A stretch of DNA of 24,000 bases. Source: Paludibacteraceae bacterium. Its GTDB lineage: Bacteria > Bacteroidota > Bacteroidia > Bacteroidales > Paludibacteraceae. A program made the position numbers and the translations under genes. The stretch lies in NCBI GenBank assembly GCA_017961765.1, contig JAGCWQ010000016.1, positions 8,916 to 32,915 on the forward strand, given 5' to 3'. Below, piece by piece: positions 10,623-16,601 of this stretch (position 1 is its first letter; every line of letters begins with the position of its first letter). Below the pieces are notes generated by a model. It was not told the origin of the DNA. It ran no database searches and worked only from the letters and a program-made list of their open reading frames with translations.

Positions 10623-13085
10623 TTATAACAAATAAACCCTCTTCACACGTTTGGTCAATCCTGCCAAGATCTCGTATGAGATGGTGCCCAATGTATCGGC
10701 AACCCCTTGAATCGGGTGCCCTTTGCCAAACAGAACGACCGTGTCGCCCTCCTTTGCGTCAATGTCCGTGAGGTCAATCATACAGACATCCATGCATATA
10801 TTGCCGACGATAGGGGCAAATTTGCCATTCACCAACACCTTACCCACACGATTACCCAGTTTACGGTTCCATCCATCGGCATACCCAATAGGGATGGCTC
10901 CAATGACGGAGTCTCGATTCAACGTGCCCTTTCGGCTATAACCGACCGTATCCGTGGCAGGAACTCTCCTAATTTGGAGAATATTCGTCTTGAGCGTACA
11001 AACCTCTTCCAACCGACGGTTGTCCACTGCACTCATGCCGTAGTGGCCGATACCCAAACGCACCATGTCGAACTGGTATTGGCTGAATCGTTCGATTCCT
11101 GCCGAATTGAGTATGTGGGCAATGATTTTGTGCGGGAAAGCTTTCTCCAAGCGTTCTTTGACTCTGGAGAATATCGCTATTTGCTGTTCGGTAAAAGCAT
11201 CGAATTTTGCATCGTCCGAGCCCACTAAATGAGAAAATACCGAACGGATTTTTACGCTGTCCTGATGTTTCAACTTCTCTATGAGAGCGTCGATATCCTT
11301 CTCCTCAAAACCTAAACGGTGCATTCCCGTATCAATCTTGACATGGATAGGGTAGTCCTTGATACCCATTTGGGCCGCTTCCTTAATCATGCGGTCTAAC
11401 AAACCGAAGCTATAGACCTCAGGCTCCAAATTATATTCAAAAATCTTCGCAAAACTGTTTTGTTCGGGGTTCATCACCACGATAGGGATGTGGATGCCCT
11501 CCCGACGAAGCACGGCACCCTCGTCGGCCACCGCCACCGCCAAATAGTCGCAACCATTGTGTTGCAAGGTACGAGCCACCTCCACATCACCACTTCCGTA
11601 GGCATTGGCCTTCACCATACTCATGATTTTAGTGCCCGGTTTCAAGAAGGAACGGAAGTAGTTGAAGTTGTTGACCAAAGCCCCTAAATCGACCTCCAAA
11701 ACCGTCTCATGCACGGCAGAGGAGAGTCGGTCGGATATCTCCTCGAAACGGAATTTGCGGGAGCCTTTCAAAAGAATGGCCTCACTGGTGAAGTCGCAAA
11801 TGTTCATGTGGCTTAGGAACGTATCCGTATTAGGATAGAAGACCTGGTTCTCCACATTGAAAAGCGACTGGAATAGGGAGATGTCCTCTCCGATACCAAT
11901 CAGCCTGTCAATTCCCTTTCCTTCCACCAAGGAAGCGATATTTTCGTATAACAGTTTCGGATCCTGTCCGTTCTGTTTGATATCGGATAGGATGAGGGTC
12001 TTCTTGCGCTCCTTTGCCGTAGCCTGCTGCGTCAAGAAATCGAGGGCTATGCTGAGCGACGTGATGTCGGAATTATAACTGTCGTTGATGACAAGGCATC
12101 CATTTTGTCCGTCCTTCACCTCCAGACGCATGGCGATAGGCTCAATAGCAGATAGTTTCGCATTAGCCTTTTCCACCGATACCCCCAAAACCAGCATGGC
12201 GCAGAGGCAAGAGAGTGAATTTTCAATGGATGCGTCGTCGATAAACGGAATCTCATAGGTGTAGTCTTTACCGGCAAATTGGTAGGAGATGGAACTCCAT
12301 CGGTCGGACTTGCGGTTGACTGCCAAAATGTGGACATCCGCCTCCTTGTTCGTTCCGAAGGTGAAGAATTTTGCCTTGGTGCCGGACTGAGCCGCCGTTA
12401 TATCCACTAACTTATTGTCTTTGTTGAAGATAACCGTATCACTTTGAAGGAATAGTTTCAATTTCTCGGCACACTTCACCTTCATGGAAGAGAAGTTTTC
12501 CTGGTGAGCATCACCCAAATTAGTGAAGATACCGATGGTCGGAGCGACGATCGGTTGCAAACGCTCCATCTCGCCCATTTGTGAGATACCGGCCTCGAAT
12601 ATGCCCAACTGCGTTTCGGAATTCAAATCCCAAACAGAGAGCGGCACACCTATCTGCGAGTTGTAGCTACGAGGCGAACGGGTAATCTTATAGTCTTCGT
12701 TGAGCAATTGGTAGAGCCACTCCTTGACAATGGTCTTGCCATTACTTCCGGTAATGCCGATTACGGGGATATTGAAGGAGTGCCTATGTTTGGCGGACAA
12801 AGTCTGCAACGCAAGGAGCGTGTCGTCCACTTCGATAAAATTAGCTCCTTCAAGGTTTTGAAATTCAGGGAGAACCTTGTTGACCAAGAAACTCCGTACG
12901 CCCTTCTTGTAGAGGGTGCCGATGAACTTGTGGCCATCGTTCCTATTCGACTTGAGAGCTATGAAAAGGGTATCTTCTGGGAAGGAGAGTGCCCTGCTGT
13001 CCGTCAGCAGACGGTTTATTTCAGCGGCACAGTTTCCCTGAAACTTACCGCCAACCATTTCGGCAATCTGTTTTATCGTATACAT
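10623..13085 (-). CDS. murF: Bifunctional UDP-N-acetylmuramoyl-tripeptide--D-alanyl-D-alanine ligase / alanine racemase
   Basis: The N-terminal half is MurF-like (MYTIKQIAEMVGG, GITGSNGKT, DSYNSD). The C-terminal half is alanine racemase-like (VKANAYGSG with the PLP lysine, and PIGYADGW). The length is 820 aa. Confidence 0.9.
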   Translation of the reverse strand: MYTIKQIAEMVGGKFQGNCAAEINRLLTDSRALSFPEDTLFIALKSNRNDGHKFIGTLYKKGVRSFLVNKVLPEFQNLEGANFIEVDDTLLALQTLSAKHRHSFNIPVIGITGSNGKTIVKEWLYQLLNEDYKITRSPRSYNSQIGVPLSVWDLNSETQLGIFEAGISQMGEMERLQPIVAPTIGIFTNLGDAHQENFSSMKVKCAEKLKLFLQSDTVIFNKDNKLVDITAAQSGTKAKFFTFGTNKEADVHILAVNRKSDRWSSISYQFAGKDYTYEIPFIDDASIENSLSCLCAMLVLGVSVEKANAKLSAIEPIAMRLEVKDGQNGCLVINDSYNSDITSLSIALDFLTQQATAKERKKTLILSDIKQNGQDPKLLYENIASLVEGKGIDRLIGIGEDISLFQSLFNVENQVFYPNTDTFLSHMNICDFTSEAILLKGSRKFRFEEISDRLSSAVHETVLEVDLGALVNNFNYFRSFLKPGTKIMSMVKANAYGSGDVEVARTLQHNGCDYLAVAVADEGAVLRREGIHIPIVVMNPEQNSFAKIFEYNLEPEVYSFGLLDRMIKEAAQMGIKDYPIHVKIDTGMHRLGFEEKDIDALIEKLKHQDSVKIRSVFSHLVGSDDAKFDAFTEQQIAIFSRVKERLEKAFPHKIIAHILNSAGIERFSQYQFDMVRLGIGHYGMSAVDNRRLEEVCTLKTNILQIRRVPATDTVGYSRKGTLNRDSVIGAIPIGYADGWNRKLGNRVGKVLVNGKFAPIVGNICMDVCMIDLTDIDAKEGDTVVLFGKGHPIQGVADTLGTISYEILAGLTKRVKRVYLL

Positions 13086-14158: not shown

Positions 14159-14557
14159 ATGAAAGAAGAAAGATATGAAGAGGAGCCCAAAAGCCAAATA
14201 GAGGAGTATGGAGAGCATTATTCCCCACAAGAACTCTTCTTCAAGTTGGCTCGTGTCGCTAAAAATGCAGGTATCAAAATAGTCTATTATGTCTTGATCC
14301 TCTACTATTCATTGATGTATGGGAACCTGACGGTGAAGGAGAAAAGTATCATCATCGGGGCATTGGGATATTTCATCCTGCCGATAGACTTGATTCCTGA
14401 TTTGTTGCCATTAGGCTATTCGGACGACCTCTCCCTCATCGTTTTTGTCGTGACCAAGATGAAGAAATCCTTCACGGAAGAGATTCGTACGATGGCACTC
14501 AACAAACTGAAACGATATTTTGACAATATTGATGAGGATGCTATTTCCTTGAAATAA
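14159..14557 (+). CDS. DUF1232 (YkvA-like) membrane protein
   Basis: The signature ALGYFILPIDLIPDLLPLGYSDDL is characteristic of DUF1232. Confidence 0.7.
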   Translation: MKEERYEEEPKSQIEEYGEHYSPQELFFKLARVAKNAGIKIVYYVLILYYSLMYGNLTVKEKSIIIGALGYFILPIDLIPDLLPLGYSDDLSLIVFVVTKMKKSFTEEIRTMALNKLKRYFDNIDEDAISLK

Positions 14558-14666: not shown

Positions 14667-14674
14667 TACATTTG
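14667..14674 (+). promoter_or_regulatory. Candidate -7 promoter box upstream of the Y-RNA-like cluster
   Basis: TACATTTG matches TAnnTTTG and lies about 43 nt before the first module. A weaker ATCATTTG at 14704-14711 would place the transcription start exactly at the base of module A (G14717). Confidence 0.3.
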
Positions 14675-14716
14675 CAATGTCAAACGAATAAAAGAGTTCT
14701 TTGATCATTTGAAATA

Positions 14717-14817
14717 GGCAGCGGTTGCCGTAGTGGAGAGTTACTTCGAGATTCCTATTCTTAATCGAACCCTGAGGTTCGATAGCATATACTCTCTACG
14801 TTTGTCGCACCACTGTC
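14717..14817 (+). ncRNA. Y-RNA-like module A, a candidate Rsr-binding bulged helix with a small apical hairpin
   Basis: 14717-14725 pairs with 14809-14817 (one C-A mismatch). T14726 is bulged. GC 14727-28 pairs with GC 14807-08. The 3' side carries the bulge TTTGTC. CGTAG 14729-33 pairs with CTACG 14796-800. The 5' side carries the bulge TGG. AGAGT 14737-41 pairs with ACTCT 14791-95. The apical hairpin is ATCGAAC-CCTGAG-GTTCGAT (14764-14783). Modules B and C share this architecture. Confidence 0.55.
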
Positions 14818-14824
14818 CCTTTAT

Positions 14825-14953
14825 AAAGGGGTGCCGTAGGAAAGGGATACTTCGTAGTGGTCAGAGCGTCGGCTAAGCCGAAGGCGCAAGTTCGAATCTT
14901 GCCATCAGTTCGCTGATGTTAGCTCAATTCCCTACCAGCTGTCGCCTCCTTTT
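14825..14953 (+). ncRNA. yrlA: YrlA-like Y RNA: an Rsr-binding-type bulged helix enclosing a tRNA-like domain
   Basis: The stem matches modules A and C: 14825-31 pairs with 14946-52, T14832 is bulged, GC pairs with GC, GTAG pairs with CTAC, GAAA is bulged, and GGGAT pairs with ATTCC. The interior has a canonical T-arm GCAAG-TTCGAAT-CTTGC (14886-14902). It also has a D-loop-like AGTGGTCA followed by GAGC (14856-14867), which pairs with the GCTC in TAGCTCA (14922-25). A closed acceptor-like hairpin CATCAG-TTCG-CTGATG spans 14903-18. A short arm TCGGC-TAA-GCCGA spans 14869-81. The module lies directly upstream of rsr on the same strand. Confidence 0.75.
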
Positions 14954-14962
14954 AAAACTATA

Positions 14963-15056
14963 ACGGCTGCCGTAGCAGAGAAGTTCTTCGATCAGTTAGG
15001 GGAGTGGGATTAAATGCCCACTTGTAAAAGGTCTCTGCGCTTGTTGCGCCGTTTTT
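14963..15056 (+). ncRNA. Y-RNA-like module C (YrlB-like short Y RNA) ending in a T-tract
   Basis: ACGGC 14963-67 pairs with GCCGT 15048-52. T14968 is bulged. GC pairs with GC. The 3' side carries the bulge CTTGTT. CGTAG 14971-75 pairs with CTGCG 15035-39 (one G-U pair). C14976 is bulged. AGA pairs with TCT. The apical hairpin is AGTGGG-ATTAAATG-CCCACT (15003-15022). The module ends in a T5 run at 15052-15056, which looks like an intrinsic terminator. Confidence 0.6.
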
Positions 15057-15083
15057 GTATAACCATTTAGAACTTATATTCTT

Positions 15084-16601
15084 ATGATGTTTAATCAGAT
15101 GTTGAAAAATAAGGCAGAAAAGAACTATCAAGGTGGCGAAGCGTATAGACTTACTCCTGAATTGGAACTCTATACGGCCGTTGTGACCTCTTCGCTTAGC
15201 AACAAATTCTACGAGGAAAAAGAGGAACAGATGCTACGCATCTCTAATCTAGTCAGCCAAGTCTCTCCTGAATTCGTAGCCAAACTCGCTGTCTATACCC
15301 GCACGCAGATGAACTTGCGCAGCATTCCGTTGTTGCTGATCGTCCTGCTCTCCAAAATCCACAACGGAGACGACCTCGTGGCACGGACAATCGAAAAGAC
15401 GGTGTTGAGAGCCGACGAGATTGCGGAACTCCTTATGTGCTACCAACTTCTGAATCCATCAGAAGGGGAAAAGAAATTGGCGAAACTATCCCGTCAAATC
15501 CAAAACGGTCTGAAATCTGCTTTCAATAGGTTCGACGAATACCAATTTGCCAAGTACGACCGAAGCAACGCACAAGTGCAACTCCGCGACGCTCTCTTTC
15601 TCGTACACCCTAAGGCCAAAGACGATAAGCAACAAGAACTCTTCGATAAGATTGCCCAAAAGAAATTGGAGATTCCCTACACATGGGAAACGGAGCTATC
15701 CGCATTGGGTCAGCAAAAATTTGAATCGCAGGAAGAGAAGACGATGGCTTTACGAGCAAAATGGGAAGAGTTGATTTTCAGCGGGAAAGTGGGTTATATG
15801 GCCTTGCTTAGGAACTTGCGGAATATGCTCAACGCCCAAGTCTCTGGCTCTGCGATGAACCATGTCGCCGACCTATTGGCAGACGAGCACCAAGTAAAGA
15901 ACTCCAAGCAATTGCCGTTCCGCTTTCTCTCCGCCTACAGGGAAATAAAAGGGATTGAAAGCGTTAACACCCAATATGTTATGTCGGCATTGGAAACAGC
16001 TATTAAGCATTCCACTACCAACATCGAAGGGTTCGACGAACAAACAAGCGTCCTCTTGGCATGCGACGTGAGCGGATCTATGAATTGTTCCATCAGTTCC
16101 AAAAGCACCTTGCAGTATTATGACATCGGCATCCTACTTGCCATGCTTTTCAAAACACGTTGCAAGAGTGTGATTTCAGGCATCTTCGGCAATAAATGGG
16201 AAGTGGTGAATATGCCGTCCGACAACATCTTGATGGCAACCGACCAACTCAAGAATCTTGCCAACAAGGTAGGCTTCAGCACCAACGGCTATAAAGTCAT
16301 CGACTACCTCATCGACAATAAAAAGGAGATTGACAAGGTGATGTTCTTCACGGATATGCAACTCTGGGATTCCGACGGACACAATACCTCCTTGCGCCAA
16401 TCATGGGAACGTTACAAACAACGGTTTCCAAAATCGAAGCTCTATCTTTTCGACTTGTGCGGCTATGGAGTTTCCCCACTCAAAATCGCCCAGCCCGATG
16501 TCTATATCGTCTCTGGATGGAGCGACCGGGTATTCGACGTGCTTTCTGCCATCGAAAAGGGGACGGACGCCATCGAATTTATCAAGAAAGTAAAGATTTA
16601 A
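15084..16601 (+). CDS. rsr: Ro60-related protein Rsr (TROVE domain plus a C-terminal vWA domain)
   Basis: The TROVE-type N-terminus is NYQGGEAYRLTPELELYTAV...FYEEKEEQ...FVAKLAVYTRTQMNLRSIPLLL. The vWA MIDAS motif is LLACDVSGSM. The length is 505 aa. Y-RNA-like elements lie immediately upstream. Confidence 0.85.
   Translation: MMFNQMLKNKAEKNYQGGEAYRLTPELELYTAVVTSSLSNKFYEEKEEQMLRISNLVSQVSPEFVAKLAVYTRTQMNLRSIPLLLIVLLSKIHNGDDLVARTIEKTVLRADEIAELLMCYQLLNPSEGEKKLAKLSRQIQNGLKSAFNRFDEYQFAKYDRSNAQVQLRDALFLVHPKAKDDKQQELFDKIAQKKLEIPYTWETELSALGQQKFESQEEKTMALRAKWEELIFSGKVGYMALLRNLRNMLNAQVSGSAMNHVADLLADEHQVKNSKQLPFRFLSAYREIKGIESVNTQYVMSALETAIKHSTTNIEGFDEQTSVLLACDVSGSMNCSISSKSTLQYYDIGILLAMLFKTRCKSVISGIFGNKWEVVNMPSDNILMATDQLKNLANKVGFSTNGYKVIDYLIDNKKEIDKVMFFTDMQLWDSDGHNTSLRQSWERYKQRFPKSKLYLFDLCGYGVSPLKIAQPDVYIVSGWSDRVFDVLSAIEKGTDAIEFIKKVKI

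What the first reader, a model, noticed from the sequence alone, without database searches (positions are those of the whole stretch)
14717..16601. Ro60/Rsr orthologue preceded by three tandem, paralogous Y-RNA-like bulged helices
The CDS at 15084..16601 is a TROVE+vWA protein, a bacterial Ro60 (Rsr). The 370-nt spacer upstream has no credible ORF. It contains three same-strand segments that each fold into the same architecture. From the base outward this is: helix I, a single bulged U, GC:GC, a 6-8 nt 3'-side bulge containing UGU(C/U), CGUAG:CU(A/G)CG, a 1-4 nt 5'-side bulge, then helix III. The 5' strands are GGCAGCGGT-T-GC-CGTAG-TGG-AGAGT (14717), AAAGGGG-T-GC-CGTAG-GAAA-GGGAT (14825) and ACGGC-T-GC-CGTAG-C-AGA (14963). 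The 3' strands are ACTCT-CTACG-TTTGTC-GC-ACCACTGTC (14791-14817), ATTCC-CTAC-CAGCTGTC-GC-CTCCTTT (14927-14952) and TCT-CTGCG-CTTGTT-GC-GCCGT (15032-15052). The central TGCCGTAG / CTAC..TGTC-GC core is conserved. Helices I and III differ in sequence between copies yet stay complementary (AGAGT:ACTCT versus GGGAT:ATTCC; GGCAGCGGT:ACCACTGTC versus ACGGC:GCCGT). This is the pattern expected for a protein-binding RNA helix, not for a coding or random repeat. Y RNAs encoded next to rsr are established in Deinococcus, Salmonella (YrlA/YrlB) and Mycobacterium. Standard gene callers would miss these three RNAs entirely. I cannot tell whether a three-copy array with this core has been described for this lineage.
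Basis: partly seen in the sequence, partly recalled or inferred. Interest (0 to 1): 0.8.

Follow-up and report, generated by a model that had tools for sequence, protein, structure and literature searches.

The report
Three Y RNA genes beside Ro60
Just upstream of a bacterial Ro60-like gene lie three small structured RNA genes of the "Y RNA" kind; they belong to a large, apparently uncatalogued family in Bacteroidota in which one to six such RNAs share one protein-docking loop but carry different tips, one of them a rearranged tRNA look-alike.

Summary
Three same-strand units (14717-14817, 14825-14952, 14963-15052) sit between a Bacteroidetes-type promoter-like site and a TROVE+vWA (Ro60-family) gene at 15084-16601. 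All three share U-GC-CGUA-G ... (C)G-N-YUGUY-GC.

In 80 related Bacteroidota rsr loci the composite 5' motif occurs 189 times on the rsr strand and 3 times on the other. Of the 189, 186 lie within 1.5 kb of rsr, at 1-6 copies per locus. The basal helix and upper helix covary strongly: 15 of 17 pairs show compensatory changes, 93% of cells are paired, against 39-52% when the partners are slid.

One detail is revised. The last G of CGUAG starts a continuous 8-bp upper helix, leaving a conserved asymmetric internal loop (CGUA / G-N-YUGUY). This resembles the loop in the Rfam YrlA consensus.

Copy 2 carries a tRNA-like cloverleaf opened in the D loop. Relatives re-joined there are called tRNAs by ARAGORN. 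This is unlike canonical YrlA and apparently like Deinococcus Yrn1.

Rfam finds nothing in the window. I read these as Rsr-bound Y RNAs co-transcribed with rsr: a new sequence and architecture variant of a known kind. Expression and binding are untested.

The parts
14667..14703 (+). Promoter-like region upstream of the first unit only. It holds TACATTTG (14667-14674, matches TAnnTTTG), then 21 nt, then GTTCTTTG (14696-14703). The predicted start lies a few nt before 14717.
   Evidence: sequence. TAnnTTTG lies within 100 nt of 36/90 first units against 1/96 internal units. T[TC]C[TA]TTGA lies upstream of 25/90 first units against 2/96 internal units, and the spacer to the upstream TTTG has a mode of 21 nt. 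Reading these as Bacteroidetes -33/-7 elements is an inference from general knowledge.
14717..14817 (+). Y RNA unit 1 (the first-in-array type).
- Basal helix: 14717-14725 with 14809-14817.
- Bulged U: 14726.
- GC:GC: 14727-28 with 14807-08.
- Internal loop: CGUA 14729-32 opposite GUUUGUC 14800-06.
- Helix III: 14733-41 with 14791-99.
- UACUUCG: 14742-48.
- Apical hairpin: 14764-14783.
   Evidence: (z -3.7). The orthologue in L027 is 84% identical over 99 nt, with a compensatory change in the apical hairpin (AUCGAACC/GGUUCGAU in the window, UUGAACC/GGUUCAA in L027).
14825..14952 (+). Y RNA unit 2, carrying a D-loop-opened tRNA-like cloverleaf.
- Basal helix: 14825-31 with 14946-52.
- Bulged U: 14832.
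- GC:GC: 14833-34 with 14944-45.
- Helix III: 14839-48 with 14927-36 (two mismatches).
- ACUUCG: 14849-54.
- D-loop part UAGUGGUCA, then D-stem 3' strand GAGC 14864-67.
- Anticodon-like arm: 14869-81 (3-nt loop).
- T arm: 14886-14902.
- Closed acceptor-like hairpin: 14903-18.
- D-stem 5' strand GCUC: 14922-25.
   Evidence: sub-threshold Rfam tRNA match, 19.1 bits, at 14854-14903; the MFE fold pairs GAGC with GCUC; 75% identity over 124 nt to L009; covariation in the AC, T and AS arms; 7/8 members are called tRNA by ARAGORN after un-permuting; the window copy is not.
14963..15056 (+). Y RNA unit 3 (the rsr-proximal type).
- Basal helix: ACGGC 14963-67 with GCCGU 15048-52.
- Bulged U: 14968.
- GC:GC: 14969-70 with 15046-47.
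- Internal loop: CGUA 14971-74 opposite GCUUGUU 15039-45.
- Helix III: 14975-81 with 15032-38.
- UCUUCG: 14985-90.
- Apical hairpin: 15003-15022.
- U5 tract: 15052-56.
   Evidence: the consensus fold of 8 rsr-proximal units returns the same structure, and all end in a U tract. TTTT lies at the 3' end of 57/85 last units against 28/82 internal units.
15084..16601 (+). Ro60-family protein (TROVE ring plus vWA domain), 505 aa. It starts 27 nt after the unit 3 U tract.
   Evidence: TROVE 4e-29, vWA_Ro60 8e-9; full-length match to Thermus phage phiLo Ro60 (9L5Y/9KOP), E 2.4e-23; 5298 homologues, named TROVE domain-containing protein in Bacteroidales; distant from D. radiodurans Rsr.

Best explanation
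The spacer encodes three paralogous noncoding Y RNAs that work with the downstream Ro60-family protein.

Inferred pathway:
1. One Bacteroidetes-type promoter just upstream of 14717 drives a single transcript through units 1-3. Read-through past the unit 3 stem and U tract reaches rsr.
2. The precursor is cut into RNAs of roughly 95-130 nt.
3. In each RNA the 5' and 3' ends pair into a basal helix. Above it sits an invariant platform: a bulged U, GC:GC, and an asymmetric internal loop (5' CGUA opposite 3' G-N-YUGUY), closed by an 8-bp upper helix and followed by a conserved single-stranded ACUUCG. This platform is the docking site for the Ro60 ring.
4. The variable tips act as the effector or gating modules. 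Units 1 and 3 have a simple hairpin. Unit 2 has a tRNA-shaped domain. By analogy with Deinococcus and Salmonella, the tips would tether Ro60 to partners such as PNPase, or control access to its cavity.

Shown here by computation: the anatomy, conservation, covariation, strand, linkage to rsr, promoter-like and U-tract placement, and the tRNA-like fold. Inferred: transcription, processing, Rsr binding and effector function.
For: Linkage to rsr:
- The 8-mer TGCCGTAG recurs on the rsr strand next to rsr in about 70 of 80 loci, and almost never on the other strand.
- The composite 5' motif occurs 189 times on the rsr strand against 3 on the other. 186 of the 189 lie within 1.5 kb of rsr, and 72/81 loci are positive.
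- Most of the remaining loci have variant cores or no flanking sequence.

Structure:
- With units anchored on motifs only, 132/229 candidates have at least 6/7 basal pairs, against 17.6 expected from swapped partners. There are 81 distinct basal 7-mers.
- On 109 units, 92.9% of cells are paired against 39-52% for slid partners. Compensatory change is seen in 15/17 pairs, and 0/500 shuffles reach the observed covariation score.
- Many G:U pairs fix the + strand as the RNA strand.
- RNAalifold on real full-length orthologues returns the same stems independently.

Link to known Y RNAs:
- Paralogous units in L007 match the Rfam YrlA tRNA-like core at 36 bits, E 4e-6.
- The YrlA consensus has the same layout: a basal stem, a 5-nt/8-nt internal loop, a 7-bp helix, and CUUGUCGCC on the 3' strand.
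- The core GCCGUAG differs by one base from the proposed Rsr-recognition motif GNCGAAN0-1G (PMC4201824).
- Known bacterial Y RNAs lie upstream of rsr on the same strand, and in M. smegmatis they are processed from one precursor (PMC4201824).
- The closest solved relative of the protein, phage phiLo Ro60, binds two upstream Y-like RNAs and forms a complex with them and PNPase (PMC12135203).

Transcription signals:
- Promoter-like motifs lie upstream of first units only.
- U tracts are enriched at last units.
Against: - There is no expression, end-mapping or binding data.
- Rfam finds nothing in the window at gathering thresholds or at E<=10, apart from a sub-threshold tRNA match.
- Fold z-scores of units 2 and 3 are unremarkable.
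- Unit 2 departs from the family consensus: A replaces the conserved loop G, helix III has two mismatches, and the anticodon-like loop is cut to 3 nt. It may be decaying.
- In the closest genome (L027) the third unit has lost the core motif while keeping its helices. Not every unit therefore needs to be a functional Rsr ligand.
- The protein is only distantly related to the Rsr proteins for which Y RNA binding was shown.
- The basal-helix statistics come from units pre-selected for at least 5/7 basal pairs. Helix III was not used for selection.
Confidence: 0.85

Rival explanations
1. The units are cis-acting elements of the rsr mRNA leader, not independent stable RNAs. Ro60 would bind them to autoregulate its own translation or stability, or they would act as attenuators.
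For: The array lies directly in front of rsr. No separate rsr promoter is evident in the 27-nt gap. Promoter-like motifs occur only before the first unit. Unit 3 ends in a stem plus U5 tract that could act as a leaky terminator.
Against: In 16 loci the arrays lie only downstream of rsr, and in 13 loci on both sides, so a leader position is not required. Up to six distinct, individually conserved paralogue types with elaborate tRNA-like tips are hard to explain as a leader. Known Y RNAs are likewise co-transcribed with rsr yet accumulate as separate RNAs (PMC4201824). The two roles are not mutually exclusive.
Confidence: 0.08
2. The units are tRNA-derived or mobile repeat debris (permuted tRNA pseudogenes, MITE-like repeats) that happens to accumulate near rsr, with no role with Ro60.
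For: Unit 2 and many relatives contain tRNA-like arms. Real tRNA genes and large tRNA arrays lie in or beside many of these loci.
Against: The shared platform is invariant across units whose helices have completely different sequences, with compensatory changes throughout. That indicates selection on an RNA structure rather than decay. The motif is essentially absent elsewhere: 3 of 189 copies lie outside the rsr neighbourhood and 3 lie on the opposite strand. Units 1 and 3 have no tRNA-like part.
Confidence: 0.03
3. The conserved platform is the recognition site of a different factor, such as a processing nuclease or an RNA-modifying or repair enzyme, and Ro60 is only a co-regulated neighbour.
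For: Ro60 binding is not tested. The protein is distant from the characterised Rsr proteins. The extra conserved ACUUCG element has no counterpart in the described Ro60 site.
Against: The only gene constantly linked to the arrays across 80 loci is the TROVE gene. The window's other neighbours are syntenic only with the closest genome. The layout parallels the YrlA stem.
Confidence: 0.04

Closest known systems
YrlA (Rfam RF02553; Salmonella/Mycobacterium-type bacterial Y RNA; Chen et al. 2014, PMC4201824)
   Same: Both are encoded next to rsr on the same strand. Both are modular: a 5'/3' stem with an asymmetric internal loop, then an upper helix, then an effector tip. The 3' strand shares YUGUCGC. 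The 5' motif differs by one base from GNCGAAN0-1G. Sister units in related loci match the YrlA tRNA-like core.
   Different: No window unit reaches any YrlA score. The core is GCCGUAG rather than GNCGAA(N)G. There is an added invariant bulged U and an ACUUCG element. The window's only tRNA-like unit has the order D(3' half)-AC-V-T-AS-D(5' half), with an anticodon-like arm retained, rather than V-T-AS-D with the Y stem in place of the anticodon stem.
Deinococcus radiodurans Yrn1 / Yrn2
   Same: These Y RNAs lie upstream of rsr. Yrn1 is described as having a T stem-loop, an 'anticodon arm' and only D-loop features, which is the same topology as unit 2. Yrn2 and YrlB are long hairpins with small loops, like units 1 and 3.
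   Different: The sequences were not compared, because the Yrn1 sequence is not held here. Relatives of unit 2 form a complete cloverleaf with a D stem, a 7-nt anticodon loop and a variable loop. The window protein is only distantly related to D. radiodurans Rsr.
Thermus phage phiLo Ro60 with Yrl1/Yrl2 (PMC12135203)
   Same: This is the closest solved protein relative (E 2.4e-23, full length). Two Y-like RNAs lie upstream of the Ro60 gene. Binding and a Ro60/Y RNA/PNPase-type complex were shown experimentally.
   Different: It is a phage system. Its RNAs were identified through a CGAA motif, and there are two RNAs rather than an array of differentiated paralogues.
Metazoan Y RNAs (RF00019)
   Same: Several paralogous Y RNAs serve one Ro60. 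A terminal stem carries a conserved bulged Ro60 site, and the RNA ends in a 3' U tract.
   Different: There is no sequence or covariance-model match. Metazoan Y RNAs are Pol III genes and have no tRNA-like module.

Membership tests
Bacterial Y RNA (functional class) | Encoded within a few kb of the Ro60/Rsr gene on the same strand | tested here: met
   The units lie at 14717-15056 and rsr at 15084-16601, both on the + strand. Family-wide, 186/189 motif copies lie within 1.5 kb of rsr on its strand.
Bacterial Y RNA (functional class) | A long stem formed by the 5' and 3' ends that carries a conserved bulged or internal-loop protein site | tested here: met
   93% of cells are paired, 15/17 pairs show compensatory change, and the platform is invariant.
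Bacterial Y RNA (functional class) | A second, variable module of stem-loops at the tip | tested here: met
   Units 1 and 3 have hairpins. Unit 2 has a tRNA-like domain.
Bacterial Y RNA (functional class) | Bound and stabilised by Rsr; accumulates as a discrete small RNA | not testable with these tools
   Needs Northern blots, RIP or EMSA.
YrlA (RF02553) | Covariance-model score at or above the gathering threshold (69 bits) | tested here: not met
   The window has no YrlA match even at E<=10. Sister units in L007 reach 36 bits, over the tRNA-like core only.
YrlA (RF02553) | GNCGAAN0-1G motif near the 5' end | tested here: not met
   All three units have GCCGUAG, with U where A is required. This holds in 115 of 129 related units; the rest have GCCGUAA.
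YrlA (RF02553) | tRNA-like domain in the order (V)-T-AS-D, with the Y stem replacing the anticodon stem-loop | tested here: not met
   Unit 2 has the order D-loop/D 3' strand, AC arm, V, T arm, AS hairpin, D 5' strand. Units 1 and 3 have no tRNA-like domain.
Yrn1-type Y RNA (D. radiodurans) | T stem-loop plus anticodon-like arm, with the Y stem entering at the D region | tested here: inconclusive
   The topology of unit 2 fits the published verbal description. There was no sequence or structure comparison with Yrn1 itself.
tRNA | Recognised as a tRNA gene (ARAGORN; Rfam RF00005 at 29 bits or more) | tested here: not met
   ARAGORN finds 0 genes in the window. RF00005 scores 19.1 bits. The window copy is not called a tRNA even after un-permuting, whereas 7/8 relatives are.
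Ro60/Rsr protein | TROVE (HEAT-repeat ring) domain followed by a Ro60-type vWA domain | tested here: met
   PF05731 4.1e-29 and PF25045 8.3e-9, both above their cutoffs. Full-length alignment to phage Ro60 9L5Y.
Ro60/Rsr protein | Equivalog of characterised bacterial Rsr (NCBIfam NF041674, cutoff 900 bits) | tested here: not met
   31.6 bits. D. radiodurans Rsr 2NVO matches at E 0.003 over the C-terminal half only.

The most novel reading that the evidence does not exclude
Bacteroidota Ro60 may be served by a co-transcribed cassette of up to six differentiated Y RNAs. All share one docking platform not described before (bulged U, GC:GC, CGUA / G-N-YUGUY loop, ACUUCG) but carry different effector tips. 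These tips include two differently permuted tRNA mimics in the same array: the anticodon-opened YrlA type, and a D-loop-opened complete cloverleaf with a free, variable anticodon loop. Genuine tRNA-Met genes are often interleaved. This would point to a programmable Ro60 RNP set tied to tRNA metabolism or surveillance in gut and rumen Bacteroidota, and it is invisible to current annotation.
Probability: 0.4. Interest if true: 0.65.

Novelty: new variant of a known kind. Interest (0 to 1): 0.5.

Why it matters
Ro60 and Y RNAs are a conserved RNA-surveillance system, and commensal Ro60 proteins have been discussed as lupus autoantigen mimics. Bacterial Y RNAs have nevertheless been studied in only a few species.

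This window and its relatives show that gut and rumen Bacteroidota carry a distinct Y RNA family that Rfam-based annotation misses. The family offers:
- a sharply defined candidate Ro60-binding platform, ready for mutagenesis;
- natural series of 1-6 paralogues per genome with different tips;
- two tRNA-mimic topologies side by side.

Together these make long-standing questions directly testable in cultivable carriers: what the second Y RNA module recruits, and why it mimics tRNA. For the window itself the gain is more modest: three unannotated ncRNA genes assigned to a known functional class.

Tried and rejected
1. Rfam at gathering and permissive thresholds. Nothing in the window except a sub-threshold tRNA match. 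RF02553 only touches the tRNA-like core of sister units in relatives.
2. A covariance model built from stem-only 'mini' units (R1). It could not bridge the 40-90 nt interiors and scored the true units at only 8-10 bits, so I abandoned it. Motif-anchored extraction plus count of structure pairs was used instead.
3. Tested and rejected at family level.
4. A Y-RNA-like 'bulged C' register (GUAG pairing with YUGU). The column pairs examined gave no support, but the columns were mis-indexed, so this register was not properly tested.
5. A viral-contig scan with a 14-base pattern. It returned at least 120 hits, but only 2 of 120 have a complete unit, so the hits are mostly chance. One contig (L129) does carry a unit plus an Rsr homologue.
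6. DUF1232 and the other neighbouring genes as parts of the system. They are syntenic only with the closest genome, so rejected.
7. The sigma-70 promoter and terminator scan. It was uninformative, as expected for Bacteroidota.
8. Literature searches for Bacteroidetes, Prevotella or Bacteroides Y RNAs found no description. However, the supplementary tables of Chen et al. 2014 and the 2020 Annual Review are not held, so prior listing of some of these RNAs cannot be excluded.
Full report
**What is in the sequence**

The spacer between a DUF1232 gene (14159-14557) and the 505-aa ORF at 15084-16601 contains the three segments exactly as quoted.

The ORF matches Pfam TROVE (4.1e-29) and vWA_Ro60 (8.3e-9). 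It aligns over its full length with the solved Ro60 of Thermus phage phiLo (E 2.4e-23). It is nevertheless far from the characterised Rsr proteins. D. radiodurans Rsr matches only at E 0.003, and the NCBIfam Rsr equivalog scores 31.6 bits against a cutoff of 900. I therefore call it a Ro60-family protein, not a proven Rsr orthologue.

The closest genome is a rumen Paludibacteraceae MAG (L027, 83% protein identity, syntenic neighbours). The other genes in the window are chromosomal housekeeping genes.

**More than chance**

- TGCCGTAG-N10-CTTC occurs three times in the window, all in the spacer on the + strand, against 0.03 expected.
- Each unit folds with paired ends. Only unit 1 beats its shuffles clearly (z -3.7). 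Units 2 and 3 have z of about -1.2, so the case rests on comparison, not on energies.
- Rfam finds nothing at gathering thresholds. At E<=10 it finds only a sub-threshold tRNA match inside unit 2 (19.1 bits).
- ARAGORN finds no tRNA.

**Comparative evidence**

I fetched 80 Bacteroidota loci encoding relatives of the protein.

- TGCCGTAG recurs next to rsr, on its strand, in about 70 of them, with up to seven occurrences per locus (at most six per locus by the stricter composite motif).
- The composite 5' motif (T[GA]CCGTA[GA], 5-12 nt, NCTT[CA]) occurs 189 times on the rsr strand and 3 times on the other strand in 556 kb.
- 186 of the 189 copies lie within 1.5 kb of rsr.
- Copies per locus: 1 in 17 loci, 2 in 24, 3 in 13, 4 in 10, 5 in 6, and 6 in 2.
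- Arrays lie upstream only in 43 loci, downstream only in 16, and on both sides in 13.
- The nine negative loci mostly have variant cores or lack flanking sequence.

A three-copy array is therefore typical of this family.

**Structure**

I first anchored units on sequence motifs alone. Of 229 candidates, 132 have at least 6/7 basal pairs, against 17.6 expected with swapped partners. There are 81 different basal 7-mers.

I then used 109 non-redundant units with interiors removed. These were selected on the motifs and on at least 5/7 basal pairs; helix III was not used for selection. For the family model, 92.9% of cells are paired against 39-52% for slid partners. Compensatory change is seen in 15 of 17 pairs, and 0/500 shuffles reach the observed covariation score.

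None of its 5 pairs shows compensatory change, and the middle pairs are broken in about half of the units. Instead the last G of CGUAG covaries with the C of the 3' 'CG' (G:C 96, A:U 7, G:U 6, no mismatch). That pair starts a continuous 8-bp helix III.

RNAalifold on real full-length orthologues of each window unit returns the same stems. The frequent G:U pairs fix the + strand as the RNA strand.

The conserved platform, from the base upward, is:
1. the basal helix;
2. an invariant bulged U;
3. invariant GC:GC;
4. an internal loop, 5' CGUA opposite 3' G-N-YUGUY;
5. helix III;
6. single-stranded (U/A)U-ACUUCG.

**Relation to known Y RNAs**

Rfam holds YrlA (RF02553). In L007, two units with the order T arm, closed acceptor-like hairpin, D arm hit its tRNA-like core at 36 bits (E about 4e-6). 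This is below the 69-bit threshold because the stems do not match.

The YrlA consensus shows the same layout: a basal stem, a 5-nt/8-nt internal loop and a 7-bp helix. It shares CUUGUCGCC on the 3' strand. The core GCCGUAG differs by one base from GNCGAAN0-1G, the motif proposed for Rsr recognition (PMC4201824).

That paper also states that bacterial Y RNAs lie within a few kb of rsr on the same strand, that species have at least two of them, and that in M. smegmatis they are processed from one precursor.

The family is therefore a sequence and architecture variant of bacterial Y RNAs. The window lacks the canonical YrlA-type paralogue, which explains the empty Rfam result.

**Unit 2**

It is 75% identical over 124 nt to a unit in L009, and it belongs to a conserved paralogue class.

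An alignment of ten members supports an anticodon-like arm, a T arm and a closed acceptor-like hairpin, with compensatory changes.

A D stem forms between GAAC early in the unit and GUUC late in it. In the window these are GAGC and GCUC, a double compensatory change.

I re-joined the D loop, opened the acceptor hairpin loop, and changed nothing else except appending ACCA to the 3' end. ARAGORN then called 7 of 8 members canonical tRNAs, with Arg, Pro or Leu anticodons. In native order most members are not called.

The domain is thus a tRNA circularly permuted in the D loop. Canonical YrlA is instead opened at the anticodon stem (10.1101/312249). The topology fits the published description of Deinococcus Yrn1, but I could not compare sequences.

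The window copy is a derived member:
- its anticodon-like loop is only 3 nt;
- helix III has two mismatches;
- the conserved loop G is an A.

**Expression signals (inference)**

TAnnTTTG lies within 100 nt upstream of 36/90 first units but only 1/96 internal units. A second element, T[TC]C[TA]TTGA, lies 14-29 nt before the core of 25/90 first units against 2/96 internal units. It typically sits 21 nt after an upstream TTTG. This matches the Bacteroidetes -33/-7 geometry as I know it.

In the window these elements are TACATTTG (14667-74) and GTTCTTTG (14696-703).

Last units end in TTTT more often than internal ones (57/85 against 28/82). Unit 3 ends in U5, 27 nt before the rsr start codon.

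I infer one promoter, a polycistronic precursor, processing into unit RNAs, and rsr expression by read-through.

**Verdict**

The window holds three unannotated Y RNA genes next to a divergent Ro60 gene.

Its novelty is that of a variant of a known kind:
- a different conserved docking platform;
- an extra ACUUCG element;
- arrays of up to six differentiated paralogues;
- a D-loop-opened tRNA mimic.

None of these is captured by Rfam or found in the searchable literature. Two limits apply. There is no expression or binding evidence. Supplementary lists from the 2014 survey could not be checked.

Noticed in passing
L006 2695-2769, L007 2698-2772, L008 2652-2725, L020 2625-2699, L026 236-310, L031 2442-2518, L041 2566-2643, L049 2463-2535, L063 2500-2572 and others: Genuine tRNA genes, most often tRNA-Met(CAU), are interleaved on the same strand inside the Y RNA arrays of many rsr loci. 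The window has none. This suggests co-transcription and shared RNase P/Z processing, or a functional link between Ro60 and tRNA.
   Followed up: partly
L031 4807-5968; L055 723-2810 and 5743-6162; L060 6031-7325; L067 915-1668: Large same-strand tRNA gene arrays (7-15 tRNAs per locus) lie directly beside rsr and its Y RNA arrays in several Bacteroidota genomes. This is reminiscent of phage or mobile tRNA arrays. Their origin was not examined.
   Followed up: no
L027 about 2895-2990 (the closest relative's counterpart of window unit 3): The third unit keeps its basal helix (ACGGC/GCCGU), upper helix (GCAGAG/CUCUGC) and U tract. It has lost the core: AACAAGG replaces UGCCGUAG, and GUUGGUUAC replaces GCUUGUUGC. 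It may be a decayed Y RNA retained as a terminator-like element.
   Followed up: partly
window 14817-14830: A perfect 14-nt palindrome, CCCTTTATAAAGGG, bridges the tail of unit 1 and the basal stem of unit 2. It could form a hairpin (CCCUU/AAGGG) that competes with the unit 2 basal helix in a precursor. Its role, if any, is unknown.
   Followed up: no
L004 245-378, L007 2262-2395, L009 2215-2347, L012 821-953, L013 2672-2805, L031 2129-2264: The anticodon-like loops of the D-loop-opened cloverleaf units keep 7 nt, with U at position 33 and a purine at position 37. Their 'anticodons' vary freely: CCG, GGG, ACG, UCG, CAG, GAG. The loop shape, not its identity, seems to be conserved.
   Followed up: partly
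L129 2157-4085 (IMGVR_UViG_3300028897_000664): A predicted viral contig carries one complete unit of this family immediately upstream of a Ro60 homologue (39% identity) on the same strand. Most other viral pattern hits were chance matches.
   Followed up: partly
L050 2860-2971: One unit appears to hold D arm, anticodon arm and T arm in native tRNA order, with the Y stem in the place of the acceptor stem (read by eye). This would be a third way of embedding a tRNA-like domain in these Y RNAs.
   Followed up: no
window 10623-13085 (- strand): A single 820-aa ORF fuses Mur ligase domains (MurF-like) with a complete alanine racemase. It is syntenic with L027 and unrelated to the finding.
   Followed up: no
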